From the NCBI GenBank assembly GCA_000002445.1, contig CM000208.1, positions 1,952,001-2,016,000 on the forward strand: a stretch of DNA of 64,000 bases. Reading direction: 5' to 3'. Below the pieces are notes generated by a model, which was given only the letters and a program-made list of their open reading frames with translations, had not been told where the DNA came from and did no database searches. Each line of letters begins with the position of its first letter. Position 1 is the first letter of the stretch. Below are positions 3,249 to 54,709 of the stretch, piece by piece. Source of the DNA: Trypanosoma brucei (lineage: Eukaryota). The position numbers and the translations under genes were made by a program.

Positions 3249-4406
3249 CTACAAGTCAAACAGCATTTCCTCCTCATTTTCACAAAATGTCAGGCCATAC
3301 CGATGTAGCAAGGAGGCGAAGATAACCGTCCACCCTCCGAAGAACACGCCCAACCAAATAAAGATAGCATAGGGAGTGAGGGGCTCAATCATGCAGCAAA
3401 GTGAACTCAGCACGCAGAGTTCCAATGATGCTTCCGCTACATATTGCAGTAGTCGACATGACGAGAAAAATGACCCTCTCATCTTGAACAGTAGGGAGGC
3501 AGAAAACAATGCACAGAAGCCGGACCAAAAGGGACCACCAATGAACACGGCGCCGTACACGTAAATTAAGCGGTGAGCCATCGTGAGCTGCAGCAGATAC
3601 TCATCACAGAGTTGCAAATTAACACACCAGCCCCCGAGGGTTGACAGTGAACCTATTATCCCATCCACAACGAGAGCATGAAGCACAAGACCTAAGTATC
3701 CTTCTGCAACGTACCTGCGGTGTCGAGAAGACAAACACCTTTCGTTAAATAGAAGCGTCATTTTGCTTCCACTACATGGGAGTGCACTGCTCAAAAACGT
3801 AAGCGTCGGGACTAGCAGCCATGCAGACAAGGTGAAGGCTCCGTGGTAAAGGAATGATTTTATCTTTTCCAGTGGCATCAACCTACCTTCTTCAAGTGGA
3901 AGCAGAACGTTCCAACATCCAGCCGTCAGCACCATACCGAACACCCAGGCAAAATGATAAACCAGAGTATATTTGATGCCGGAGGGGTAAAGCACATCTG
4001 CAAGGTACGAAACGACACTGTTTTTGTGAAAAGTTGACACCAACGTGCAGAGCGGGAGCAACGCCGCGTCCGCTAACGACATGTGAATGGCGCCGGTGCT
4101 TTTCAACCCAGTGGGTGCTCGCGACCTCGTGCACCTGGTCACACGGCCGAATGTGATGCGACCACGCTCCCGCCACAGAAAATGAAGCACGCCACGTAGA
4201 GTTCGTGCAACAACAAAACACGCCACTGCTGAGCCACTGACGGCATTCACCACCGTACCCTCGCCAGGACCCCATCCTATAAGATACGCCACGAGTCCTA
4301 TCGATACAACATACAGGGCAAGCGGTGGGTAGCGCAGGAGGGAAGAAAAGTTCCTCCCCGGGCAACTTCCAAACTCCGCCGTATCGCCTTGTGAGTTACC
4401 GAGCAT
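3249..4406 (-). CDS. Hypothetical multipass membrane protein
   Basis: 385-aa ORF; its first codon is a verified ATG (cat at 4404-4406). It has many hydrophobic predicted TM segments and no family I can name. Confidence 0.45.
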   Translation of the reverse strand: MLGNSQGDTAEFGSCPGRNFSSLLRYPPLALYVVSIGLVAYLIGWGPGEGTVVNAVSGSAVACFVVARTLRGVLHFLWRERGRITFGRVTRCTRSRAPTGLKSTGAIHMSLADAALLPLCTLVSTFHKNSVVSYLADVLYPSGIKYTLVYHFAWVFGMVLTAGCWNVLLPLEEGRLMPLEKIKSFLYHGAFTLSAWLLVPTLTFLSSALPCSGSKMTLLFNERCLSSRHRRYVAEGYLGLVLHALVVDGIIGSLSTLGGWCVNLQLCDEYLLQLTMAHRLIYVYGAVFIGGPFWSGFCALFSASLLFKMRGSFFSSCRLLQYVAEASLELCVLSSLCCMIEPLTPYAIFIWLGVFFGGWTVIFASLLHRYGLTFCENEEEMLFDL

Positions 4407-4762
4407 TGTTGAATCTGATACGTTGGTACGTGTGTGTGCTACACCGCCAATTCACCACGCCCTCCCTTACTTCAGTTGGGGGGGGGGGTGACGAAATGAT
4501 GTTTAGCCCACCTGTGGCTTCGTCTCTCCCAACTGACGTACAACACGCAGGAGGTATGTAGTTAAGATGACGCGCTGTAGAAAGACCGAAAGACCAAGGA
4601 ATGAAAAATAGAGAAATACAAATAACAGGGGTTAAGAGGTTTTTACAGCCAAAAATGGAGCAAAACAAAAAAAAGCAAGGAAAATGATGGCAGCACCAAC
4701 GATCACACGATGTTGCCGCATTGAAAGTATGGAATTACGTGTTCATAAATCGAGGACAAAAT

Positions 4763-5332
4763 TTACTTCCATACAAAAGTTCCCTGCGGTGTCTGTTCCC
4801 TAATGATTACCTCAGCTTGCCGCAACCGTTTAAACGCCATCGGGCCATATGGCTGCATGGAGGTGGGAAGTTCGCTAATATAAAACTGGATGTTGCGCCC
4901 CGGGATAGAGTGGACTAAATTGATGATGTTGTCCTCGACAGCGGCAGCGAAGGATGCACTTGCATCATTATCTCCCGGTGCCGGTGCCGCGCTATCCGAT
5001 GTTAAATCAGTGTGCTGCAGCACGCTGAGATCTTCCTCCTCCGCACAGTGGCGACGTATTCGGTGGAGTTTGCGCGGCACAGAAAACACGGGGTACCACC
5101 GTGGGGGCTCTTCTGGCCCGTCTATACGATCCACCGTGACCTGGCCGTGGAACTTCAGTTCACCCCACAGGACGCGTGTTACCTCCATTATTCGTTCTTT
5201 TCCAAAGTAACGATTGGCATAATAAACGGCCGTCATTCCTGGATCGCGGCGCACCGTATCGAGCAGTGTGGGCAGCGTTATTGCCCTCCGGCCGGGTTCC
5301 GATGCCCCGCGCAGTAATACGCTGGAAAACAT
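4763..5332 (-). CDS. Hypothetical protein
   Basis: 189-aa ORF with a verified ATG at its top, on the same strand as the neighbouring genes. No recognisable domain. Confidence 0.35.
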   Translation of the reverse strand: MFSSVLLRGASEPGRRAITLPTLLDTVRRDPGMTAVYYANRYFGKERIMEVTRVLWGELKFHGQVTVDRIDGPEEPPRWYPVFSVPRKLHRIRRHCAEEEDLSVLQHTDLTSDSAAPAPGDNDASASFAAAVEDNIINLVHSIPGRNIQFYISELPTSMQPYGPMAFKRLRQAEVIIREQTPQGTFVWK

Positions 5333-5965
5333 CTACAATTTTCCCGACATCGACGACATACGAAATCCAAGAGCAGAGGGGAGAGGAAAGACAGCACATA
5401 AGGGAATGGACGAAAAAAAAAATAAAACAATCCAGCTACGCCTTTTGCGTTACAACACAATCACTTCAATTACACACTCAACAATTGTGTTCTTCGGGGT
5501 AAACACACAAGACCCGCAAGACTAAGCAGAGGAAAACAAAAAGGAAACATCTACACAAATAAACCCACACACACCGATGTGAAAAATGCAGACGACTGTG
5601 AAAGTGAACCTCAACCCATCTTCCATTGGTAGTGTTTAGCAGTTGTGCAGAGGCGACTCGTTTCCGCAAACTAACTTACTGAGTTTCGCAACCTCCACCT
5701 CCTGCACCGGGGGTAAATATAAACGACATTAGCTCCGGTTTCTCCGGCAGCCTGCATGTATACGTTCCCCCTCTTTTTTTTCTATAGAGGTGCGTGCGAT
5801 ATTCTCCCTCCAAACAGCGGCAGCAACGGCCCAAAGCACGGTTCTATGACATCATGTGGTGATACTACCACTCTCTTCCTTGTTAGTTTCGATGCTCTAC
5901 GCAATACTCCGCGCCACGGGAGCATCGTCTACTTTCCCCCCGCGCGCACTGAAGAATTTGCACTC

Positions 5966-31289: not shown

Positions 31290-34200
31290 GTTTCAACGTG
31301 AGTGAATGCACTGTCACCACCCTCACTTAACGTCACAAACCAACAGCAAAAATATAAAATGTGAAAGGAAAGAAGCACAACTGGTTTCTTAACTTTCCTT
31401 TACTACGTCCCTTACTCCTTTCTTCCTTGTTTCTAAAATACGTTGTTCTCGCTTTTCTTCCTCGATGCTTTCTCTGCCTCTTTTTTTTTTGTATACTTTT
31501 TGTTATTTCAGAGCCCTCAAGTGCCTGGTAGCAGAAAAAGGTGTGGAAAGGGGGAAAAAGAAAATGGAAAAAGAAGAGAGCGAACGAAAGATGAATGGTG
31601 CGAGAAACAGATAACCTCAATAATAATAATAATAATTATTATTATATATATATATATAATTCCCACAAAATAATTAACAGTCATGAAAAGTGGGTATTGA
31701 CCACATTTGGACCTCTCTTGGAGAACTTACAAACACTCAGTCAAGGGCGAATTCGCTGATTCAATCATTTTCTTTTTTTTTTTGTTTTCTTAATAACTCT
31801 AAATGAGGCATGAGAATTTGGAGCAAATGTAACAAACGAGCAGAAGACTTATCATTGAAATACGCAATGAGAAGAAGATAAAATAAGATATAAAATTAGA
31901 TAAGGTGAAGCGAAATGAAAGTGAAACAACATAAAAGATGAAAACAAAGAATGGGAAAAAAGAAGAAAAGAAAAACAACGGTCCCTTTCCTTAAAAACTT
32001 TTCCCACTGAGCAATGCACGCATATGCCACTTTTTGTGCCTGAGCTCCGCTTTCCTCAAAACGATCGATTACACTCTCAAGTAATAAATCTTAATTAAGA
32101 TAAAAGGTAAGAAGTAAAACGGAGAAAAAAAAATAAAGAAAGGAAAATTCATGAAATCCGAGGGGGAAACAACCAAAAATAAATAAATAAATAATCAAAA
32201 CAAATAAAACGCATGCGCACGCACTTTAAAATGAAAATATAAGTGAGAGGGAGGGATGATATCACAACAAGATGCATAAAAATATATATGCAGAGATAAG
32301 TGAGTAAATAATAAAATAAAGTGAAGTTCCCTCTGCATCAATTACCTTTTTCTTTCTTTCTTTCTCTTTTTTTCTTTTCTTTACTCTTCCGATCGATCAC
32401 TTGAATTCGCTAAATCATGACATGCCACATCATATTACGTTATGCTTCATTATTTTTGTGCCATTTGGTACAGGTGCGCATAACTAAAAAGTGACGTATG
32501 AAAAACGGTTCCGTCACGGCGGCAGCGGCAAAAAAAAAAAAAATACAATAAAAACAATAACGACAACATCATCACCGTAATTAACATCTTCACCGCTGAC
32601 CCACATAAACACATAAACACAAATATATTCATTTTCGCTTTATTTCAGTTATATTTACACATGACTGTGTGAGAGAGAAAAAAAAAAGAATGGCGAAGTT
32701 GTGAAAGCAACAACAGACCGCATAACTTGACAGCACTTATGATCGCTACTACCAATCAGAATAACAATAATAGCAACAATATAATATGATGATAAGACAA
32801 ACAAATCAAGGAAACCACTGACACGCTGCAAGATGAGAGGAATGGAAATGAATGAGTAGTAAACTAAATGCGGATGAGTTAAAGGAAAATAAGACAACAA
32901 TAACAAAATGTATTTGTCCTTTTCCTCCTCCTCCTTTTCACTCTCCGCTTAAATCATCCCTTTTCACCCCTGTTTTCACGCTGCCTTGAAATACCTTCAG
33001 ACAACATTCAAAAAAAAAAAAAAAAGAAATCAAACGATAGAAAAAGAAAAAAAAACGTGAAATAAAGTGAAGCGTTGACAACGGAGTTGGTGTAGAATGA
33101 AACAAACAAATAAATAAATGAGGTGCAGCCACTTGCGATAACTAAAATTATTAAACACAAGGTGCACAAAGAAAAACATGATAATAATAATAAAACACAG
33201 AAGCAAAAACGAACGAACGAACGAACAAACAAATAAAACATTCATAAATATACCAATGGGTATGAGCACTTTCAGCCGTTAGTTTATTTGATATTGATAT
33301 TTAATGGGAAATAACACACACGGCCACATTTGTACATTTACATATTATCTTATTTTCCCTTTGTGTACGACGATGCGTTTTGGAAAAACGGACAGCGCAA
33401 TAATGAGGGAGAGTAAGTAAAAATATATATATATAATAATAATAATAATCAAAAAAGAAAGACACAGAAGCAACGACGCACCAAGAGCGATCACTTTTAA
33501 TTATTTGCTTCTTTTTTTTTTTTGCCTTTCTTCAGTTACTTACTTATACATTCACTGGTGTATGAGGGGAGAAAGATAACATAAAATCAACAGAACGACA
33601 GCAACGAATATAAACATGCAAAAGCATACAAACAAAGTGAAGCAACATGTATTTGCCTGTGGTAATATTGAAAATGATATCATTATGATTGTTTACCATT
33701 TCCTCTCTTTATAATTGTAATTATATATATATATATATATAAACCCGTTTCGTCTTAAAGGAAAAAAAAAGAGGTATGGCTGAAGTCCCTTTTTTCCCTC
33801 ACGTGCACAAACGGCTCTCCCGTAAATTTAAAAGAAATAAATTAAGATAAAATGACTGGATGGAAGACTGACGACACGGCCCACACGGTAGATAGTTACA
33901 AACATAAATATAAATAAAACAAAACGAGAACACCAGACTCCCAAAATGGAATACGACCATACAAATAATAAAAGTAATTATATAAAATAAACGAAAATAT
34001 AGAAAAGCATATATATATATATATATATATATATTACATTTGTATATTTATCTTTCTTCTTTTTATAGAAACAAAATATCGAAAAGGAGGGGAAGGGAGG
34101 GGAAATAAAAGGAACATAAAGTAGGACTTAAGAAACGAATGGCAGCATTAAGAATCAAAACGAAACAATAAAAAGAGAAGTGAAAACGGAATTTTAACAA

Positions 34201-34900
34201 CTGCGGGCTAATAAAATCTAAAAAAAAGTGTCATATCGGTGGGAATGAGCGAAGCTTTTCCGCACATGTGAAAACAACTAAAATAATAATAGTAATAAAA
34301 GGAATAATAACAAAAGTAATAATCCTGAAACAAACAAAACCAAAGAACGGCCATAACAAAACAAAAAAAACACAGAAAGAGCGTGTGGACACGTATATGT
34401 GAGGGGGCGAAAATAAAATAAAAATAAATTACCCTCCTCTCATCCCTTCACATTTTTTTTCTTTTCCTCACGGGTCGGCCCATGCACTGAGCCGCACTCG
34501 ACTGTTACGGGAAGAAGAGGGGAGTGTGAAACTAGCAGACAGATAATAATAACAAATCAACAACAACAACAGCAATGGGGTTTCCGTGCCGTAGCCCCGT
34601 GCCCATAAATTGTGTGTTTGTGTGCGTGTGTCTGGAACAACGCACAATAAATAACTCCTCGGTGTTGGGCGCGGTGGCGAAACAGTGTACAACAAGGAAT
34701 ATAAATCAACATATAAGCAGATTGACAAAAAAAAAAAAAAGAGCAACGAAAGGAGAGAACCAAGAAGGAAACCGGGCAGCAATGGTGGCGCGGCGGCGGG
34801 GGGGGGGTGATAAAAGCATCCACCTCAATGCGCTTTATTTCCACTTTAAGTCCTTCGCCCTTCTTCCTGGAAAACATCTCTTAAATTCCCTCATTTGCCA
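31290..34900. other. 3.6-kb AT-rich, gene-free low-complexity island within a unidirectional gene array
   Basis: No ORF longer than 110 aa on either strand. Dense A-runs of up to 16 are seen, as are (TA)n, (AAT)n, (GAAC/GAAA)n and (AAATA)n microsatellites. The minus (transcribed) strand is T-rich. Both flanking genes are on the minus strand. Confidence 0.7.
31540..31632 (-). promoter_or_regulatory. Polypyrimidine tract plus AG trans-splice acceptor region upstream of the AP-beta gene
   Basis: Minus-strand reading: ctgtttctcgcaccattcatctttcgttcgctctcttctttttccattttctttttccccctttccacacc, followed by AG dinucleotides about 250 nt upstream of the ATG at 31280. Confidence 0.5.
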
Positions 34901-47417: not shown

Positions 47418-50030
47418 CTAAACAACAACAACAACTCCTCGCACATTAACCTGCTCGGCAAGACGAACCTGCACAAAATTAAAAAACTTCGAGCGACTCT
47501 TTTTCACTGAGAAGCCGAGACGCATATGTTCAAGTTTCCTGTTGTGACTCTCCCGCTGCTGAAATAAATCAAACATTTCGCCAGCGTAGGAGGCCTTTAC
47601 ACGACGCGTGTGGCCCACCGTCACGTGAAGCGGAACCGCACAACCTGGGCTCAACTGTAGTTCCTGACGGCGACCATTCAACACCACCGTGGCACCGAGG
47701 CACAAGGCAAAGGGATCGATCAAGACGGAGTGAAGGGTAACGTCCACAGCACTTCCAATAGCTGGCACAGAAACCCACGTCGCAGCACTTGTAGGACCGT
47801 GAAACACTGTGACGTGGGGCAAAGCAGGTTGGCACTCGTACCGATCTTCAAGGGCACGAAACCACACACTTTCTGGTGGTGTTTCCCCCACTTCTCGCCC
47901 GTCAAGAAGCCAACCGCGAAGCCAATGGGTGTGCCCCTTCTCCACTACGCCGGGACGTCGTCTGTTGCCTAAGCCCAGACCACGTTTACACCTTTCCCAC
48001 CAGCTCAACTTCGGCAGATCCACTACCACTGTGATGCTCTTAACAACGTCTGATATAATCTCGTACAACTCGTCGAATTTCACCAACAACTGGACCGCCA
48101 CTGTGTTAACCGCCTTTTTACGACTCACTTCAAGACTTCGCGCAAGGGTCATACTGTCGTTATAATGATCTCCAAGAATCGATGTAGCGAATGTTGCACA
48201 GTGCTTTGTTAGCTCTCTCTCTGCTTGTTGATGATCATAGACAGTGGCACGATGGCGACAGCTCGGAGCAGGCCCATTTGTTTCCTCGTAGAGGAGTAAT
48301 ACCGAGCGGGCGAGGTCCTCAGTCGAGGCTGCTGCAGCATCTAAACAAAAACAAGGCTCACTTTCCAGTGGGGCAACAAACTCCTTTCCCACAGCATAAA
48401 GGGCAGCCTGAGCTTCCTCGGCACCTCGCAGTACGGAGTGGTTTCGTCTTCCAGCAATACGAGACGCTAGGATGTTCCGCTCAGCGCATGCCAAGTAAAC
48501 TATGCGGAAGCTAGCCAACTCTCTGGGAAGCATATAGCGCCACCGCTGCCGTGTGCTCGGCTTGGCGTTGCACGCGTCGAAGATCAGAAGACCCGGTCCC
48601 TCAAGTAGAAATGACAACAAAATTGACTGCCTGAACGCACGTTGCACAAACTGGTGCACCATTGAGCGCAACCTTCGCTTCTTGTGCTTACTCGAAGAGT
48701 CATTGATGCCATGGTGCTCCGCCACGCACTTCGCAACTTCATCCCGACTCAGGTGCAGAATGTAACGAAAAGTAGAACACCCGTTCCCTCCCATTTCCCC
48801 AATTAGCCTTGCGAGTGTGGTTTTTCCCACACCAGGAAGACCACACAAAAAAATGACATCGAGCGGCGCATACGATATAGTCTGGGCCTCTTTTTCGGTG
48901 AACCCGAGGAGTCCCTTATAGGCCTCTTGGACACTCAAGTGGCTACCGCGATAACGCTTATTACCTTGATCATTGATATACGACTCAAATTCGCTGTATA
49001 TCTGGTGTACGCCACGATTTGTTACAGCCTGCTGCAAACATGTGTAGCCGGAGATATGTTCTGTCCATGAGCCGAGAATTTTATGGAAGAGCAACGGGTG
49101 CGCAGCAGATTCGCCGGACACAATAGACCGAAGTGAGCGCAGCACACGGTACTTCACCGTCTTTGCCTTCAAGCGGATCAACAAAGCCGTAAAGGGTGAA
49201 ATCGACTGACTTTCCGGGGAAACACGCTGCACAGTGTCTTCAATGACCACCACATATCCCTCTGCTAGCGCCTCACCAGCGGGATCTTTCCCTTCCCAAT
49301 GCTGCCTCTCTCCTAGCCAAGTGATTAACTCCTCACAATTCTTAACGCGCCAACAAGGAACCGATGGAAACCCCCACTCCTTTGCCATCTTCTGCATGAT
49401 ATCCGGGGGAACACTCACCTCCCGCATATCATCCCGCTTGTGAATGGAGAAAACGACCAGTTTGTTGTCAAACACGGTCCGCTCTGGCACCGGATGGTGC
49501 GAGTCGTCCTTGAGTGAAATGCACTCGCAGCTCACAGCAGCTCTCAACTCGAACAAATCACGCGCCAGCCGTCTACGCTGCTCGGTACTCAACATGGACT
49601 CCAGAATGTGATACGCAATATCGACGTGCGGACCCTCCACAACGTGCTTCGTGACAACGCCAAGCGACTTGCCATCAAGAGAAAACAATGTTACAACAAA
49701 TCCGGCTAGTTTTCTCTGCAACCATATGCCCTGCAGCTTCGCTACATCGCCTTTCCACATCAGGAGATCCCGCTCGACATCCTCGATGTCAAAAAACTTG
49801 TTAACGCCACGCACAACAATTTCGCTGGTATCAGCGCTAAGAAGAAGAGTACGTGCTGCGATGGGCAGGCTTTCTACATCCCCCTGATGAGATTCCTTCA
49901 CAACTAATGAGTTGAATGCGCCAGTGGCGATGAAATGTGCCTTTCCGCTATGAGCGCATTCAACAATGTCTTCCACGTTTGCGCCGTTCCATTCCCTCTT
50001 GAAAAGACACCTTTCAACAAGAACCTCCAT
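47418..50030 (-). CDS. TRL1: tRNA ligase, Trl1 type (ligase domain, P-loop polynucleotide kinase, 2H cyclic phosphodiesterase)
   Basis: 870-aa ORF with an ATG start. A central P-loop (FLCGLPGVGKTTLARLIGE) is kinase-like. Two C-terminal H-x-T-x motifs (LPHVTVFHG and PLHVTVGHTRR) define a 2H phosphoesterase. The N-terminal about 400 aa is the presumed adenylyltransferase domain. This three-domain order is unique to fungal/plant/kinetoplastid Trl1. Confidence 0.55.
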   Translation of the reverse strand: MEVLVERCLFKREWNGANVEDIVECAHSGKAHFIATGAFNSLVVKESHQGDVESLPIAARTLLLSADTSEIVVRGVNKFFDIEDVERDLLMWKGDVAKLQGIWLQRKLAGFVVTLFSLDGKSLGVVTKHVVEGPHVDIAYHILESMLSTEQRRRLARDLFELRAAVSCECISLKDDSHHPVPERTVFDNKLVVFSIHKRDDMREVSVPPDIMQKMAKEWGFPSVPCWRVKNCEELITWLGERQHWEGKDPAGEALAEGYVVVIEDTVQRVSPESQSISPFTALLIRLKAKTVKYRVLRSLRSIVSGESAAHPLLFHKILGSWTEHISGYTCLQQAVTNRGVHQIYSEFESYINDQGNKRYRGSHLSVQEAYKGLLGFTEKEAQTISYAPLDVIFLCGLPGVGKTTLARLIGEMGGNGCSTFRYILHLSRDEVAKCVAEHHGINDSSSKHKKRRLRSMVHQFVQRAFRQSILLSFLLEGPGLLIFDACNAKPSTRQRWRYMLPRELASFRIVYLACAERNILASRIAGRRNHSVLRGAEEAQAALYAVGKEFVAPLESEPCFCLDAAAASTEDLARSVLLLYEETNGPAPSCRHRATVYDHQQAERELTKHCATFATSILGDHYNDSMTLARSLEVSRKKAVNTVAVQLLVKFDELYEIISDVVKSITVVVDLPKLSWWERCKRGLGLGNRRRPGVVEKGHTHWLRGWLLDGREVGETPPESVWFRALEDRYECQPALPHVTVFHGPTSAATWVSVPAIGSAVDVTLHSVLIDPFALCLGATVVLNGRRQELQLSPGCAVPLHVTVGHTRRVKASYAGEMFDLFQQRESHNRKLEHMRLGFSVKKSRSKFFNFVQVRLAEQVNVRGVVVVV

Positions 50031-50224: not shown

Positions 50225-51454
50225 CTATGGTTGCGTCCCAGCAGGGCAATCTTCTTCAGCTGCAGGCGGCGGAGGAGCAACCGTCGGGGCTGGTCCTCGT
50301 TTCCCTTTCCTTCGGCTGCAGTGATGCTTCCTTCGAGAACGCAGCTTTGCGTTCACACCTTTTACAGTTGTTTCTAACTCATCACCAAGAATATCCCTCA
50401 GATAAGGATACGAGTCATCCTCAGCTCCCATACAAAGAAGGAGAACCACGCTGTCTACGTGACCGGCGATGGCAGCATACTGAAGGGGAGTGGCCTTCTG
50501 ACCGAGGCCAAGGACAAACTTTTCCGATAGCCTCTTTAAGCCATAGTGGCGCCGGTTGTACACCACAAATCCTCTCGCACTGACAGCACTGCCATCCAGC
50601 TCTATAAAAGCGTGTAGATCTTTCACACTACCAGCGTAGGCAATTGTCCATATGTTTTTCAGAGAAAACGTGTCGCACTCAAGTGGTCCGGCGTCCTGTG
50701 GTGCAACGGCACTAAACCGAGCAGCAGCATCGAATGACGAGGAGGGCGGCCGCATACGGGAGTCTAACCTCAAAATGGCACTGGCGAGTCGAAGTTGGTG
50801 TGACATATACTTAGCTGTATTACGAGGTGCAACAGAGATTAGCTTCTCATTGCTCCGTTTTAGAACCTTCACAGCCCCTGGCGGCACATCCACGCGGTTG
50901 TACCGAGCACCACCGAACACAACATATGAGGGGAGCGACTTTCTGCATGCGGCCAGTGTGTCCCCGTCTGTGACAACCCCACCTAAAGCGGGAGAGATTT
51001 GTTCAGCCCCACCAACCACGGCGGCCGCCTGCTCTCCGCTCTGCCCTTCACTACCGCCTAGGGCAGCTACCGGCAAAATGGCAGCTTTCGCCGCCACATT
51101 AACGCCACCACACCCTTCAAGTGAAACAGTGAGGGGCTCACTACTCCTGCCTGGACTCAGAGTCGGAGGCAGTTCCGCCGTCAACCTGCTCTCATTTGCC
51201 ACTGCGGGCAGGGTTGAAAGGGGAAGAGGAGGGGTTGATAACAGTGGCATCAACAGATTAGCATCTACGGAGGACAGTGGCTGCTGCAGCGCGCTAATCT
51301 GTGGAATGGGTACTGCCTTTGGTACAGACAGCGAAACCGGCTGCGGCGCAGGCACGGCGAGTACTGGGGGCTGCGGGGTCACCCCTATTGGGTTGTTAAG
51401 AGGAATCGGGGGTGGCGCAGCGGTGGGAGCAGGCGAACCAAACCAACCACTCAT
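50225..51454 (-). CDS. Proline-rich hypothetical protein with a C-terminal ankyrin-like repeat
   Basis: The track ORF (to 51745) starts with TTG and its first 97 aa translate a polyY tract. The ATG at 51452-51454 (MSGWFGSPAPTAAPP...) follows a T15-containing polyY tract and an AG. TPLQYAAIAGHVDSVVLLLCMGA is ankyrin-like. Confidence 0.45.
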   Translation of the reverse strand: MSGWFGSPAPTAAPPPIPLNNPIGVTPQPPVLAVPAPQPVSLSVPKAVPIPQISALQQPLSSVDANLLMPLLSTPPLPLSTLPAVANESRLTAELPPTLSPGRSSEPLTVSLEGCGGVNVAAKAAILPVAALGGSEGQSGEQAAAVVGGAEQISPALGGVVTDGDTLAACRKSLPSYVVFGGARYNRVDVPPGAVKVLKRSNEKLISVAPRNTAKYMSHQLRLASAILRLDSRMRPPSSSFDAAARFSAVAPQDAGPLECDTFSLKNIWTIAYAGSVKDLHAFIELDGSAVSARGFVVYNRRHYGLKRLSEKFVLGLGQKATPLQYAAIAGHVDSVVLLLCMGAEDDSYPYLRDILGDELETTVKGVNAKLRSRRKHHCSRRKGKRGPAPTVAPPPPAAEEDCPAGTQP

Positions 51455-51560
51455 TCCTCCTATATATGAACGGCCGACCCGATGAGTGTAAGAAGCATAT
51501 AGAGGAGAAGGCAAACAAGTATGGGCGACCACAAGCATGCAAAAAAAAAAAAAACAGCAA
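51455..51560 (-). promoter_or_regulatory. Polypyrimidine tract (T15) plus AG trans-splice acceptor upstream of the proline-rich gene
   Basis: Minus-strand reading: gcagttgctg(t)15gcatgc...ccttctcctctatatgcttcttacactcatcgggtcggccgttcatatatAGgaggaATG. Confidence 0.5.
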
Positions 51561-51747
51561 CTGCAACACATCATGTAATGAACATAGTAAAGCAAAGTAA
51601 TAATGATAATAGTAATCAGAGATGAAACCGTGGGCACGATTATCAATCCACACAAGTGTATAACCATATTTATACGAATATATGTATTTGTGCGTGACCA
51701 ATCCCACACGGCGTGACGAGAGGGTACGTGTGCCGGAGAGAACAAGG

Positions 51748-52233
51748 TTATTTTTTTCGCCCAAGCGATACAACATGATCGTATTCACTCTTCTCGACGG
51801 GCTGCACACTCAACCTTGACTGCGAAAATAGCTGCATCGCCTGCAGCTTTTTCTCCTTCTTTAGTTCCTCGAGGGAAACAATTGAAGCAAACTTTTCCTC
51901 AAATTGCACATCGACCATTTCCCACGGGTTCTTCTTGCTTGCTCTTGCATCGTAATATTCTGATTTCGGGTCCAACGCCGTGTGGTCGGGGTATGCAGTC
52001 TTTACAACGGAGGCAAGTCCCACTACACCAGAGGGCTTCGCGTTACTGTGGTAGAACAGTACACAATCTCCAACCTTCATCAACTTCATGTTGTTCCGAG
52101 CAGCATAATTCCGAACCCCGTCCCACGGGGAGCGGGTGCATTTCTTCAGGTCGTCAATCGAAAACTTATTAGGCTCGGACTTCATCAGCCAGTACTGCAC
52201 CCCGGCCGGAGACCGCGGCCTTTTACGATTCAT
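51748..52233 (-). CDS. EVE (PUA-like) domain protein, THYN1 (thymocyte nuclear protein 1)-like
   Basis: The track start is TTG at 52332, and the first ATG is at 52231-52233 (MNRKRPRSPAGVQYWLMKSEP...), giving 161 aa. It aligns along its length with human THYN1: HWLMKSEP, FSIEDLK, WDGVRNYQARN, FFYHSN, AYPDHT, NPxWxMVDVQF and SIQPL. Confidence 0.8.
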   Translation of the reverse strand: MNRKRPRSPAGVQYWLMKSEPNKFSIDDLKKCTRSPWDGVRNYAARNNMKLMKVGDCVLFYHSNAKPSGVVGLASVVKTAYPDHTALDPKSEYYDARASKKNPWEMVDVQFEEKFASIVSLEELKKEKKLQAMQLFSQSRLSVQPVEKSEYDHVVSLGRKK

Positions 52234-52902
52234 CTCCACGCGGCTAAGCCGCCTAAGAGAACTAAAAAATACGATAACCACAAGCAACAAAGATGAGTGA
52301 AATTGCAAAAAGGGAAATATAGGCCACGGCAAGAATGGAGAATTACGCTGGGTAAATTATTTAGAGAAGGGAACGTAATTGGTATTAACGAGGCTAAAGG
52401 AGAAACAGAAACCGACACAATACACGCACAATCACGCACATACGCCGCGCGGAGGCGGAGTTGACAGATGGCGCTGCCCCGGTTTTTGCGACAGACTTAC
52501 AGTGGTGCCTCCCCTGCCACTACAACCACACAAGCGACACCTTCCTCCATTTTCCCTAGAAGTGCACAATAATAAAAACGAGCTAAACTACCCACCACCC
52601 CGCCGAAGGGATCTTTTTTATTTTTTTTTCTGGGCGTCTCCCTTTTCAGTGTTCATTTTTGCCTCCATGTCGGTTCCCAGATCGAGAAAGTGAAAAACCC
52701 CTCGACAACGTGAAAGGAAGATCTACCCGATGAGAAAAATAAGAAAGTGGAGGCCAATAGGCAGTAGAAAGCGTGAAAACTTGACCCTCCACCATCCACT
52801 ACCCCGCCACATTTCGCTTCAGCAGCGGTTCATATGAAGTAAACTGGCAGAAGCAAACAAGCAAAAAGAGTGAATATAAGAACTTCACTGTATCCCCGCC
52901 CG

Positions 52903-53808
52903 TCAGTTTTCCACCCTCGCCTCTTCGTTGAATTGTACCTCATCTGAGCCTTCGTCGAATTCTACAGGACTAAGTAAGGCGAAAGAAGAAAAGCCAGCGC
53001 GTTCGTTCTGCGGCACGCGCTCGAGGCGTGGCTCTTTCCTTGGTGGCTCCTGTGGAACGTTTTGCTCTTCTCTGAAGTGAACGTCATCATCTGTTTCCAG
53101 AATGCTTCGTGTAGGGAACTTCGCTTTCTCCGGACGCCGTGAGGAAGAAGCAGGCGGTTGTGCACGTTGGGCACTCGCTGCCTTTTCGGACCGGCCACCG
53201 TGAGTGCCTCCTCTTGCTTTGGCCGATAAGCGGCGTAATTCCATTATGAGGCGGCGGCGCGTTGCACACTTCAGTTCAGCGGGTCTGATCTGCTGGTGTT
53301 TGGGTGTTTCACCCCTTTTGCATCCCTCGTAACGGCATATTATCTCCCATAGTTGTCGACCGTGAGACTTACTTGCACTTCCACCAAGCCTCAACACCTC
53401 ACGTGGATCAGGTGGGTCGAGGGAGAGCTCCGTGACGAAAAGGTCCTCCATTGCAATTTCAATTCGGCGTGCCAAGGTGGAGAAGGGTGATTCCTCTCTA
53501 TTATAGTCGTAGCAATTTTGAACGACGAGACGCATGTCATTGATAAATGCAGATGGGGATGTGTACTCATATCTTGTGAGGCGAGCCTTAATGAGGTCCC
53601 ACCACATTGGGTGCGAAATAATCATCCGGTAGTCCGGTAGCTTGGAGGGGTCGCGGGCAAATATCCCGTCCCTGTCTAGATCCATTACCACATGTAGGAT
53701 ACTTCGGCACTGCTTATAAAAGCTTGTGTCAAGGTAGTGGTGCACTTCCAAATATTTACGCCTCACGCGAGTCCATAGCAGCTTCACTCTTCTAGTAGTA
53801 TCGGACAT
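52903..53808 (-). CDS. Bromodomain-containing protein (bromodomain factor)
   Basis: 301-aa ORF with a verified ATG at 53806-53808. The bromodomain core is FARDPSKLPDYRMIISHPMWWDLIKARL...YEY...AFINDMRLVVQNCYDYN. It has a basic, low-complexity C-terminus. Confidence 0.7.
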   Translation of the reverse strand: MSDTTRRVKLLWTRVRRKYLEVHHYLDTSFYKQCRSILHVVMDLDRDGIFARDPSKLPDYRMIISHPMWWDLIKARLTRYEYTSPSAFINDMRLVVQNCYDYNREESPFSTLARRIEIAMEDLFVTELSLDPPDPREVLRLGGSASKSHGRQLWEIICRYEGCKRGETPKHQQIRPAELKCATRRRLIMELRRLSAKARGGTHGGRSEKAASAQRAQPPASSSRRPEKAKFPTRSILETDDDVHFREEQNVPQEPPRKEPRLERVPQNERAGFSSFALLSPVEFDEGSDEVQFNEEARVEN

Positions 53809-54709
53809 CGTTATTCACGCCACCACCCGCAAGACATGAGCAGCAGCGGCAACCCAAGCAATTCTGCGTAACGAAAAGCACCTGGAAGATAAATAACAGA
53901 TATGGGGGGAAGAGCGACATTATATGATGAAATACCTCTCAAACTCTTCTTCGCACCAACTGGCCGGGAATTGATCTTCCACTGCCCGCGCACACTTCTG
54001 CATGTCAACGGAGGTGGGGATAAAAGAACAGGAGAAGGGGAGAAACGACAACGACCAATCTTTCGCTTTACCTTCCCGCGAGACCGTGCTCATGTGATTC
54101 CAGCGCACTACAGGCTGATGTACAAGAAGAATGCAAACAGCAATATAGAGAGAGGTACTAGAACTGCTCTCGCCCACGCTCTCAACCAAGTACGCGACTC
54201 CCCGTCGTCCACTAGCTTTGGTCTCAAACCAGATCCAGGTTGCCAATGGTTTGGGTAAAGATACTGTTCAGCGTACCACACATTACCGTCGACTTGATGA
54301 CCCTTTTCACAACTGATATCACAATATCCCAAACGCTCGCCTACAAAACGCCGGGTGCTTTCAAGGGCGGCGGAGACTCGTAACCGCCACGGCCCATTGC
54401 TACGTGCCTTCTCCGCAACTAGGACGGGCATTTTATCCCACAACCACGTTAAACTATGCACGGAAGACCCGCTCCCCCGCATTGTTTCAAGTAAAATAGA
54501 AGAACATAAAGGATAGAAAAGGATGGTTAGTGCAAATTCGACCCGGCGATAAAACAGGAACTCATGTCCTTGAGTGCCTTCCTATGTAGAGATTCGATGG
54601 TAGTGCGAAGAATAAAGGGAACGCCTCATCTTCTGTGCAGTTTTAGTCAATTAATATTCGCTGTCGACGCAGACAGGTCAACGCAGTGAAATAATCTATC
54701 ACCGTACAC

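What the first reader, a model, noticed from the sequence alone, without database searches (positions are those of the whole stretch)
51748..53808. THYN1-like EVE (PUA-like) domain protein immediately downstream of a bromodomain factor in a base-J organism
In other eukaryotes, EVE/PUA-like domains bind modified nucleobases (5mC, 5hmC, m6A), and bacterial EVE proteins read modified DNA. Kinetoplastid DNA carries 5-hydroxymethyluracil and glucosylated hmU (base J) at transcription start and stop regions. A stand-alone 161-aa EVE protein with a near end-to-end match to THYN1 sits next to an acetyl-lysine reader. It is a plausible candidate reader of hmU/J, a role that to my knowledge has not been tested for kinetoplastid EVE proteins. 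The adjacency is on one strand of a polycistron, so co-regulation is not implied.
Basis: partly seen in the sequence, partly recalled or inferred. Interest (0 to 1): 0.55.

Follow-up and report, generated by a model that had tools for sequence, protein, structure and literature searches.

The report
Known EVE-domain protein beside BDF1
This stretch of Trypanosoma brucei chromosome 10 encodes the already annotated small nuclear EVE/THYN1-family protein Tb927.10.8140 next to bromodomain factor BDF1. It is a very conservative member of a universal protein family, and no sequence or public data examined here point to a dedicated base-J reader.

Summary
Window 51748-52233 (minus strand) encodes a 161-aa single-domain EVE protein (Pfam PF01878, E=8e-56). 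It lies 669 nt downstream of BDF1 (52903-53808, Tb927.10.8150) on the same strand. The organism is T. brucei, and the gene is Tb927.10.8140, already annotated as "EVE domain containing protein". Its Leishmania orthologue was solved in 2005 (PDB 2AR1; TM-score 0.90 to my model).

The hmU/base-J-reader idea finds no support, for five reasons:
- The pocket motifs (W37-DGVRN, FYHS, Y93) are invariant between kinetoplastids, J-free bacteria (about 58% identity) and human THYN1.
- The protein is nuclear in procyclic cells, a stage that normally lacks J.
- It is absent from the held supplementary files of the JGT/JBP3, BDF1/chromatin-factor and telomere-TALE proteomic studies.
- Known J readers use a different domain.
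- In bodonids, four to five genes separate the bromodomain gene from EVE, so the adjacency is inherited gene order.

The most likely reading is a conserved nuclear nucleic-acid binder that takes a flipped, probably modified, base into an ancient pocket. The ligand is unknown and is probably shared with bacteria and animals. It is ordinary as a sequence feature. It has modest interest as an uncharacterised candidate reader in an organism with no established m5C or m6A readers.

The parts
51748..52233 (-). CDS of Tb927.10.8140, a 161-aa EVE-domain protein (18.5 kDa, pI 9.6), including the stop codon
   Evidence: ORF list and translation check. Pfam EVE E=8e-56. 99% identical to the T. b. equiperdum 'EVE domain containing protein'. 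Gene ID and annotation come from the Goos 2017 supplement.
52213..52224 (-). Residues 4-7, KRPR: an NLS-like motif in a disordered N-terminal extension that bacterial EVE proteins lack
   Evidence: Regex hit. pLDDT is below 50 for residues 1-9. R3-K4-R5-x-R7 is conserved in 16-17 of 17 kinetoplastid sequences. KRPR/KRxR is the motif enriched in the T. brucei nuclear proteome.
51766..52197 (-). EVE (PUA-like) domain, residues 13-156
   Evidence: Pfam envelope 13-156. AlphaFold2 model has pLDDT 90.3. Foldseek TM-score is 0.90 to 2AR1, 0.85 to 2EVE and 0.88 to THYN1 5J3E.
52108..52125 (-). W37-D-G-V-R-N42 motif. W37 corresponds to W26 of P. syringae 2EVE, a residue emphasised in the original pocket description.
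   Evidence: HMMER alignment offset of 11. Invariant in 125 aligned sequences. Pocket assignment is quoted in PMC7897488.
52045..52056 (-). F60-Y-H-S63 motif on strand beta-3, family-invariant
   Evidence: Conservation table. H62 and S63 are invariant in alignment A1.
51955..51957 (-). Y93, equivalent to Y82 of 2EVE. That position is taken by the base-stacking W82 in VcaM4I.
   Evidence: Alignment offset. Y in 16/17 kinetoplastid and 102/108 other sequences. Equivalence is stated in PMC7897488.
52234..52902 (-). Intergenic region between BDF1 and EVE (669 nt). A pyrimidine-rich tract at about 52240-52340 and AG dinucleotides at 52262 and 52253 are probable trans-splice acceptor signals for the EVE mRNA (inferred).
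   Evidence: Sequence read. No Rfam family in the window.
52903..53808 (-). CDS of BDF1 (Tb927.10.8150), 301 aa, with the bromodomain at residues 34-114. It is a neighbour and is not shown to be a partner.
   Evidence: Pfam bromodomain E=6.5e-18. PDB 5KO4 E=1.3e-68. ID table in PMC9279504. The reported partner is BDF4, not the EVE protein.

Best explanation
The gene is Tb927.10.8140, the kinetoplastid orthologue of the universal stand-alone EVE/THYN1 family.

Shown:
- It is a single PUA-like EVE domain with an intact, family-invariant surface pocket.
- It carries a short basic N-terminal KRPR extension.
- The protein is enriched in purified nuclei.

Inferred:
- The KRPR motif imports it into the nucleus.
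- There the basic face (pI 9.6; invariant K18, R41, R46, R140) binds a nucleic-acid strand.
- One base is flipped into the conserved pocket (W37, Y93 and the polar residues S19, E20, D38, N42, H62, S63, D83, D95). This is what the EVE domain of VcaM4I does with 5mC and 5hmC.
- The pocket is unchanged from bacteria to trypanosomes to humans, so the ligand is most likely a base or modified base common to all of them. Candidates are an RNA modification such as m5C or a cytosine-type 5-substituted pyrimidine, not the lineage-specific hmU or J.
- Its position next to BDF1 is inherited gene order within one long polycistron and does not indicate a functional pairing.
For: Identity and fold:
- Pfam EVE E=8e-56.
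- PDB 2AR1 (L. major orthologue) E=4e-59; 2EVE 9e-42; THYN1 1.5e-34.
- Model pLDDT 90.3, with TM-score 0.85-0.90 to solved EVE structures. YTH, ASCH and VcaM4I follow at about 0.5.

Conservation:
- About 55 positions, including W37, Y93, KSEP, DGVRNY, ARN, FYHSN and RLSVQ, are the same in 17 kinetoplastid and 108 other sequences.
- 27 columns are invariant in alignment A1.
- T. brucei is as similar to bacterial EVE proteins (mean 58%) as to Leishmania (61%) or Bodo (63%).

Nuclear location:
- Log2 nuclear enrichment is 3.89 with p=0.02 in Goos 2017. This passes that paper's thresholds.
- KRPR is the motif that paper found enriched in nuclear proteins.

Base-flipping precedent: VcaM4I EVE-DNA structures, and the equivalence of 2EVE Y82 to VcaM4I W82.

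Synteny:
- Leishmania has the same gene order.
- In Bodo and an environmental bodonid contig, four to five genes lie between the BDF position and EVE.
- All large ORFs in the window are on one strand.
Against: - No ligand has been shown for any stand-alone EVE protein of this type. THYN1 binding to 5mC/5hmC rests on pull-down screens, and in the 5J3E co-crystal the 5mC sits in an irrelevant position.
- T. brucei DNA has at most traces of 5mC, and its DNMT-like protein is cytoplasmic with no ChIP signal. A DNA-5mC role is therefore doubtful.
- An RNA role has no direct evidence either.
- Pocket residues beyond W37 and Y93 are inferred from conservation. I could not superpose coordinates.
- Bacterial neighbourhoods of the closest homologues are inconsistent and give no functional clue.
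Confidence: 0.6

Rival explanations
1. One reading: the kinetoplastid EVE protein has been recruited to read 5-hydroxymethyluracil or glucosylated hmU (base J) in nuclear DNA at transcription start and stop regions.
For: - EVE and SRA-type PUA-like pockets accept 5-substituted pyrimidines.
- The protein is nuclear.
- No binding test has been published.
- Trypanosomatids and Bodo carry A or S instead of Q at position 44, beside the W37-Y43 pocket loop.
Against: - Pocket motifs are identical in J-free bacteria and in humans.
- There is no accelerated divergence: about 58% identity to bacterial proteins.
- Q44 is retained in a bodonid-type kinetoplastid contig with the same synteny (P0051), and A or S at position 44 also occurs in bacterial sequences. 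The substitution therefore does not track J.
- The protein is nuclear in procyclic cells, which normally lack J.
- It is not found in the held supplements of the JGT/JBP3 purifications or the telomere/repeat TALE proteomics.
- JBP1 and JBP3 read J with an unrelated domain.
- A pocket sized for a base is unlikely to hold a glucosylated base unless it is remodelled (inference).
Confidence: 0.06
2. The adjacency is functional: the EVE protein and BDF1 act together as a combined reader of chromatin acetylation and a nucleic-acid mark at transcription start regions.
For: - They are immediate neighbours on one strand in T. brucei and Leishmania.
- Both are nuclear-enriched.
- BDF1 sits at RNAPII start regions.
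Against:
- In bodonids the two genes are separated by four to five genes.
- BDF1 affinity purifications recover BDF4. Tb927.10.8140 is absent from the held supplementary tables.
- It is also absent from the held L. mexicana BDF5 proximity-labelling tables.
Confidence: 0.04
3. It is the nuclear reader of an RNA modification in trypanosomes, which have no established m5C or m6A reader. Candidates are m6A in poly(A) tails, or m5C. It would act on mRNA processing, export or stability.
For: - YTH is among the nearest non-EVE folds after ASCH and is described as the closest structural relative of EVE.
- Reviews list no established m5C or m6A reader in T. brucei: only 'TRRM2?' for m6A, and 'unknown' for m5C.
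- EVE and PUA domains are classically RNA-associated, and JGI labels the bacterial homologues 'predicted RNA-binding protein with PUA-like domain'.
- The protein is nuclear in both J-containing and J-less contexts.
- This rival overlaps the best explanation and differs only in naming RNA as the substrate.
Against: - There is no direct RNA-binding evidence.
- I could not consult the mRNA-bound proteome.
- The one structurally characterised EVE-ligand complex is with DNA cytosine modifications.
- YTH similarity is only at the fold level (TM-score about 0.5, 13-15% identity).
Confidence: 0.2
4. It is not a reader but a small enzyme acting on a modified nucleoside or nucleic acid, as some ASCH-family PUA-like proteins are.
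For: - ASCH proteins are the next-closest folds, and one of them (ZmASCH) has ribonuclease activity (title of PMC5615036).
- The invariant K18-S19-E20 and Y61-H62-S63 clusters could be catalytic. E. coli YqfB, an ASCH protein, uses a Lys/Thr/Glu triad to deacetylate N4-acetylcytidine. That last point is from my own knowledge and was not checked here.
Against: - No activity has been reported for any EVE protein.
- The EVE domain of VcaM4I is a pure sensor.
- Similarity to ASCH is remote (10-13% identity).
Confidence: 0.1

Closest known systems
Leishmania major hypothetical protein, PDB 2AR1 (structural-genomics target; the syntenic L. mexicana gene would be LmxM.36.6870)
   Same: It is the orthologue: E=4e-59, about 61% identity, the same length and the same N-terminal RKRxR. 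Model-to-crystal TM-score is 0.90 with rmsd 1.0 A. The gene order Nup144, small ORF, BDF1, EVE, x, tRNA ligase is the same in the Leishmania sp. Ghana genome.
   Different: Only species-level substitutions. No function was assigned to it either.
Human THYN1/Thy28 (PDB 3EOP, 5J3E)
   Same: Both are single EVE domains with a basic N-terminal extension and nuclear location. All pocket motifs are shared (HWLMKSEP, WDGVRNY-ARN, FYHSN, AYPDHT, RLSIQP). E=1.5e-34 and TM-score 0.88.
   Different: Human THYN1 has a 55-aa N-terminal region and two insertions, of 9 and 8 residues. It has Q rather than A at position 44. Identity is only 42-48%, lower than to bacterial EVE proteins. THYN1 was picked up as a 5mC/5hmC binder in screens, whereas T. 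brucei DNA has at most traces of 5mC.
Bacterial stand-alone EVE proteins (P. syringae PSPTO5229, PDB 2EVE; Myxococcota and Acidobacteriota homologues)
   Same: 55-64% identity over the whole domain to the closest metagenomic homologues (2EVE itself about 47%), with identical pocket residues (W26/Y82 = W37/Y93) and the same size.
   Different: Bacterial proteins lack the KRxR extension. They carry 'P-R-W' instead of 'N-P-W' at positions 102-104 and mostly Q at position 44. They sit in operon contexts that have no counterpart in a trypanosome polycistron.
EVE domain of the modification-dependent endonuclease VcaM4I (PDB 6YEX and its DNA complexes)
   Same: The fold is the same, and the position of the base-flipping pocket is presumably the same. 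The stacking residue W82 corresponds to Y93 here.
   Different: The relationship is very remote (13% identity, TM-score 0.56). VcaM4I is fused to an HNH nuclease and acts in defence. W26 of 2EVE (W37 here) is not conserved in VcaM4I.
JBP1 J-DNA-binding domain and JBP3 (the established base-J readers)
   Same: They are nuclear kinetoplastid proteins that recognise a modified base.
   Different: The domain is unrelated. JBP1 DB is a 160-residue domain confined to J-containing protozoa, and JBP3 carries a homologous J-DNA-binding domain. Pfam finds nothing but EVE in this protein. The EVE family is universal and is not restricted to organisms with J.
YTH domain m6A readers
   Same: PUA-like fold, and a pocket for a modified base.
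   Different: Similarity is at the fold level only (TM-score about 0.5, 13-16% identity). The protein is not a YTH family member by sequence.

Membership tests
EVE domain family (Pfam PF01878, PUA-like superfamily) | Sequence match to the family profile above the curated cut-off, covering the whole domain | tested here: met
   188.5 bits against a cut-off of 23, E=8e-56, profile positions 1-144 of 145.
EVE domain family (Pfam PF01878, PUA-like superfamily) | [quoted passage not shown] | tested here: met
   The model (pLDDT 90.3) has E14-19, H26-32, E34-37, E57-62, E69-82, E105-120 and E143-146. TM-score is 0.85-0.90 to 2AR1, 2EVE and 5J3E.
EVE domain family (Pfam PF01878, PUA-like superfamily) | Conserved putative base-binding pocket (2EVE W26 and Y82) | tested here: met
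   W37 and Y93 are present and invariant or nearly invariant across 125 sequences.
THYN1/Thy28 orthologues (eukaryotic stand-alone EVE proteins) | EVE is the only recognisable domain, and the protein is nuclear | tested here: met
   The only Pfam hit is EVE. KRPR motif. In the T. brucei nuclear proteome with log2 enrichment 3.9.
THYN1/Thy28 orthologues (eukaryotic stand-alone EVE proteins) | Phylogenetic orthology with animal, plant and fungal THYN1, as opposed to a separate bacterial origin | tested here: inconclusive
   The protein is closer to bacterial EVE proteins (mean 58%) than to human THYN1 (48%). No broad eukaryotic sampling or tree was made. Bell et al. also leave the ancestry of eukaryotic EVE domains open.
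THYN1/Thy28 orthologues (eukaryotic stand-alone EVE proteins) | Preferential binding of 5mC/5hmC-containing DNA | not testable with these tools
   This needs binding assays. For THYN1 itself it rests on pull-down screens.
Base-J binding proteins (JBP1, JBP3) | Presence of the JBP1-type J-DNA-binding domain | tested here: not met
   Pfam finds only EVE at E<=0.01. All PDB sequence and fold matches are EVE, ASCH or YTH.
Base-J binding proteins (JBP1, JBP3) | Physical association with J-synthesis or J-dependent complexes (JGT, PJW/PP1) | tested here: not met
   No mention of the gene ID, 'EVE domain' or 'thymocyte' in the five held supplementary files of Kieft 2020. The check is limited to the text as stored.
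Base-J binding proteins (JBP1, JBP3) | Phyletic restriction to J-containing organisms and expression tied to the J-positive stage | tested here: not met
   The family is found in bacteria and humans. The protein was detected in nuclei of procyclic cells, a stage that normally lacks J.
Base-J binding proteins (JBP1, JBP3) | Selective binding of J- or hmU-containing DNA | not testable with these tools
   Needs EMSA, FP or ITC with modified oligonucleotides.
EVE-containing modification-dependent restriction or defence proteins | Fusion or operonic linkage to a nuclease or toxin | tested here: not met
   It is a 161-aa single-domain protein. Its neighbours are BDF1 and a conserved Ank-like protein.

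The most novel reading that the evidence does not exclude
Despite its conservative pocket, Tb927.10.8140 could be a nuclear reader of a kinetoplastid nucleic-acid mark that has no assigned reader of this fold. In that case the A/S44 substitution and the 'NPW' loop of trypanosomatids and Bodo would tune a 5-substituted-pyrimidine pocket from cytosine-type to uracil-type ligands.
Probability: 0.06. Interest if true: 0.7.

Novelty: already known. Interest (0 to 1): 0.25.

Why it matters
As a sequence feature it is ordinary. The gene is annotated, its Leishmania orthologue has a crystal structure, and its family is described.

What remains open is the biochemical ligand of stand-alone EVE/THYN1 proteins in any organism. 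Trypanosomes are a reasonable place to ask:
- The protein is nuclear.
- Only traces of 5mC have been reported in T. brucei DNA.
- Reviews list no established m5C reader and only a tentative m6A reader.
- J-null and naturally J-less stages are available as clean controls.

A positive hmU/J result would add a third, structurally unrelated class of J reader. A negative result would still help to define what this ancient pocket recognises.

Tried and rejected
1. Literature searches for 'EVE domain' with trypanosomes, and for THYN1 with hmU. Nothing functional turned up. A search for the 2AR1 paper returned only irrelevant hits. Iyer 2013, Bertonati 2009 and Lueong 2016 are not held.
2. Supplement look-ups for Tb927.10.8140 and its orthologues.
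   - Found only in the nuclear proteome.
   - Absent from the held files of Staneva 2021, the TALE repeat proteomics, Kieft 2020, the BDF5 BioID and TrypTag.
   - Several of these files were truncated when stored, so absence is weak evidence.
3. Q44A as a possible J-linked specificity switch. I rejected this for two reasons. A bodonid-type contig with the same synteny keeps Q44. Some bacterial EVE proteins have A or S at that position.
4. Genomic context of the closest bacterial homologues as a clue to function.
   - Two related Myxococcota-like contigs place EVE after an NrdG-like radical-SAM gene. That gene scores below the curated cut-off and is not convincingly QueE.
   - They also place it near an RluA-type pseudouridine synthase and an adenosine deaminase.
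   - A third contig is unrelated, so there is no consistent signal.
5. Residue-level mapping of the VcaM4I 5hmC pocket onto the T. brucei protein. This was not possible. VcaM4I is too remote for sequence alignment, and model coordinates are not exposed. Only the W82 = Y93 equivalence from the paper could be used.
6. Rfam scan of the window and a tandem-repeat scan of the AT-rich gap. Neither found anything relevant.
7. A broad eukaryotic EVE phylogeny was not attempted. The available search would return mainly animal THYN1.
Full report
**What is there**

The minus strand of window 51748-52233 translates to a 161-aa protein (MNRKRPRSPAGVQYWLMKSEP...GRKK) followed by a stop codon. The mechanical ORF extends 33 codons further upstream to a TTG. 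That extension is a translated pyrimidine tract. All trypanosomatid orthologues begin at the M-x-RKR-x-R methionine. A polypyrimidine run with AG dinucleotides lies 20-30 nt upstream of the ATG, as expected for a trans-splice acceptor (inferred).

A 301-aa ORF with a bromodomain lies 669 nt upstream on the same strand, at 52903-53808 (PF00439, E=6.5e-18). It matches PDB 5KO4 at E=1.3e-68. That entry is tabulated for T. brucei BDF1, Tb927.10.8150. The next genes are a small tail-anchored ORF and the Nup155-type nucleoporin TbNup144, Tb927.10.8170.

The EVE protein is 99% identical to a T. brucei equiperdum protein named 'EVE domain containing protein'. It appears under the ID Tb927.10.8140 with that same annotation in a published data table.

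**Is it an EVE fold?**

Yes, without reservation.
- Pfam EVE scores 188.5 bits against a cut-off of 23 (E=8e-56) over the full profile.
- The best PDB sequence hit is 2AR1, the Leishmania major orthologue solved by a structural-genomics group in 2005 (E=4e-59). It is followed by the Pseudomonas proteins 2EVE and 2G2X (about 1e-40) and human THYN1 3EOP and 5J3E (1.5e-34).
- An AlphaFold2 model built on a 50-sequence alignment has mean pLDDT 90.3. Only the first nine residues are disordered.
- Foldseek places the model at TM-score 0.90 (rmsd 1.0 A) from 2AR1, 0.85 from 2EVE and 0.88 from THYN1. ASCH, YTH and the VcaM4I EVE domain follow at about 0.5.

**How conservative is it?**

I aligned 17 kinetoplastid sequences, 105 further database hits (mostly bacterial or metagenomic), two Pseudomonas EVE proteins (2EVE, 2G2X) and human THYN1.
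- About 55 positions carry the same dominant residue in both groups.
- 27 columns are strictly invariant in the 50-sequence alignment.
They also include W15-LMKSEP21, A45-R-N47, Y81-x-D83, Y93-x-D95, W104 and R140-LSVQ144.
- The two residues highlighted in the original description of the EVE pocket, W26 and Y82 of 2EVE, correspond to W37 and Y93 here. Y82 is the position occupied by the base-stacking W82 in the VcaM4I-5mC/5hmC complexes.
- The T. brucei protein is as similar to Myxococcota- and Acidobacteriota-type EVE proteins (mean 58%, range 55-64%) as to its Leishmania (61%) and Bodo (63%) orthologues. It is more similar to them than to human THYN1 (48%).

The label 'THYN1-like' is fair at the domain level. 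The protein is best described as a slow-evolving member of a family shared by bacteria and eukaryotes.

**What is specific to kinetoplastids?**

- There is a disordered basic N-terminal extension containing K4-R-P-R7. It is conserved as RKRxR in 16-17 of 17 kinetoplastid sequences and is absent from bacterial proteins.
- A or S replaces Q at position 44, next to the pocket loop.
- 'N-P-W' replaces 'P-R-W' at positions 102-104.

Position 44 is not a J-linked switch. An environmental contig has the Bodo-type gene order (nucleoporin, small ORF, an unannotated gene at the BDF position, several further genes, CCDC24, EVE), and its EVE protein keeps Q44. Some bacterial sequences also have A or S there.

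**Location in the cell**

Goos et al. compared purified nuclei of procyclic T. brucei with whole-cell lysate. In that dataset Tb927.10.8140 has a log2 nuclear enrichment of 3.89 (p=0.020). This is well beyond their thresholds of 0.7 and 0.05. The same paper found KRPR/KRxR to be the motif enriched among nuclear proteins. The N-terminal KRPR is thus a plausible import signal (inferred).

**Is the adjacency to BDF1 meaningful?**

- All 25 ORFs of 220 aa or more that look like genes are on the minus strand, so the whole 64-kb window is one polycistron.
- Leishmania has the identical order: Nup144, small ORF, BDF1, EVE, conserved 626-aa protein, tRNA ligase.
- In Bodo saltans and in the environmental bodonid contig, four to five genes lie between the bromodomain gene and EVE.
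- BDF1 affinity purifications recover BDF4 reciprocally. Tb927.10.8140 does not occur in the held supplementary tables of that study.

**The hmU/J hypothesis**

Nothing I could compute or look up supports it, and several points weigh against it.
1. The pocket is unchanged relative to organisms that have neither hmU nor J, and there is no sign of accelerated evolution on the kinetoplastid branch.
2. The protein is present and nuclear in procyclic cells. Procyclic cells down-regulate the JBPs and normally lack J.
3. The protein is not mentioned in three sets of held supplementary files. These are the JGT/JBP3/Wdr82 purifications that defined the J-binding PJW/PP1 complex, the TALE-based proteomics of telomeric and other repeats, and the L. 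mexicana BDF5 proximity proteome. Several stored files are truncated, so this is weak negative evidence.
4. The established J readers, JBP1 and JBP3, use a dedicated J-DNA-binding domain confined to J-containing protozoa. The only domain here is EVE.
5. A pocket that accommodates a flipped base sandwiched between aromatic side chains would need remodelling to accept a glucosylated base. This point is inference.

None of this is a binding experiment. The idea is disfavoured (about 6%), not refuted.

**Most likely mechanism**

Shown:
- a single EVE domain with an intact family pocket
- a basic protein (pI 9.6)
- nuclear enrichment

Inferred:
- KRPR-dependent nuclear import.
- Binding of a nucleic-acid strand on the conserved basic face.
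- Insertion of one flipped base into the W37/Y93 pocket, by analogy with VcaM4I.

The pocket is conserved from bacteria to humans, so the ligand is probably a base or modification common to all of them. In T. brucei only traces of DNA 5mC have been reported, and the DNMT-like protein is cytoplasmic with no chromatin signal. Reviews list no established m5C reader and only a tentative m6A reader for trypanosomes. I therefore lean towards an RNA or single-stranded substrate. The substrate is the weakest step of the argument.

Rivals are an hmU/J reader, a functional BDF1 partner, a dedicated RNA-modification reader, and an ASCH-like enzyme. The invariant K-S-E and Y-H-S clusters keep the enzyme option open (the catalytic triad in YqfB is from my own knowledge and was not checked here).

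**Comparison with what is known**

The closest known entity is the L. major orthologue 2AR1, then bacterial stand-alone EVE proteins and human THYN1.
- The protein meets every testable criterion for the EVE family.
- It meets the architectural and localisation criteria for a THYN1-type protein.
- Strict orthology with animal THYN1 versus a bacterial origin was not resolved. Bell et al. also leave this open.
- It fails every testable criterion for the J-binding protein family.

**Verdict**

The finding is real but ordinary: an annotated gene, a known family, and a solved orthologue. The attached hypothesis is cheap to test but currently unsupported.

Scores: interest 0.25; novelty 'already known'. 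The most novel reading still open is a reader of hmU or J, at about 6%, with an interest of about 0.7 if true.

Noticed in passing
window 1-64000: Every ORF of 220 aa or more that looks like a gene is on the minus strand. The whole window lies inside one polycistronic transcription unit, with no strand-switch region.
   Followed up: partly
window 47418-50030 (-): An 870-aa protein with an N-terminal T4-type RNA ligase domain and a central P-loop kinase domain, i.e. a Trl1-type tRNA ligase. It is syntenic with a 905-aa Leishmania gene.
   Followed up: partly
window 54108-54482 (-): A 124-aa ORF between BDF1 and Nup144 with a strongly hydrophobic C-terminal tail (residues 106-124). By position it is probably Tb927.10.8160, which Goos 2017 localised to the nuclear rim. 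A small gene is called at the same position in Leishmania and Bodo.
   Followed up: partly
window 50225-51745 (-): This mechanical 506-aa ORF starts 3 nt after the EVE stop codon, but its first ~95 residues are a translated pyrimidine-rich UTR. The conserved part (residues 259-464; weak ankyrin hit) matches the 626-aa Leishmania neighbour at E=9e-29. The real start codon is further downstream.
   Followed up: partly
window 31300-34900: An ORF-free, AT-rich gap (GC 0.33 against about 0.50 elsewhere). It contains only short simple repeats and has no Rfam hit. It may be a long UTR or intergenic region.
   Followed up: partly
L006 (JGI metagenome 3300066132, contig Ga0609847_1730), 1-6495: An environmental contig with the Bodo-type gene order (nucleoporin, small ORF, a 251-aa gene weakly similar to BDF1, several further genes, CCDC24, EVE). 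It is evidently from a free-living kinetoplastid. Its EVE protein (P0051) keeps Q44 and has 'PI' at positions 102-103.
   Followed up: partly
L003 and L004 (Myxococcota-like contigs), about 4390-5480: In the closest bacterial homologues, the EVE gene sits 22-28 nt downstream of an NrdG-like radical-SAM gene (below the curated cut-off). An RluA-type pseudouridine synthase and an adenosine deaminase are nearby. A third bacterial contig (L005) has an unrelated context.
   Followed up: partly
protein level, window 51748-52233: The T. brucei EVE protein is more similar to bacterial EVE proteins (mean 58%) than to human THYN1 (48%). This raises the question of whether eukaryotic stand-alone EVE proteins are vertically inherited or of bacterial origin.
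   Followed up: no
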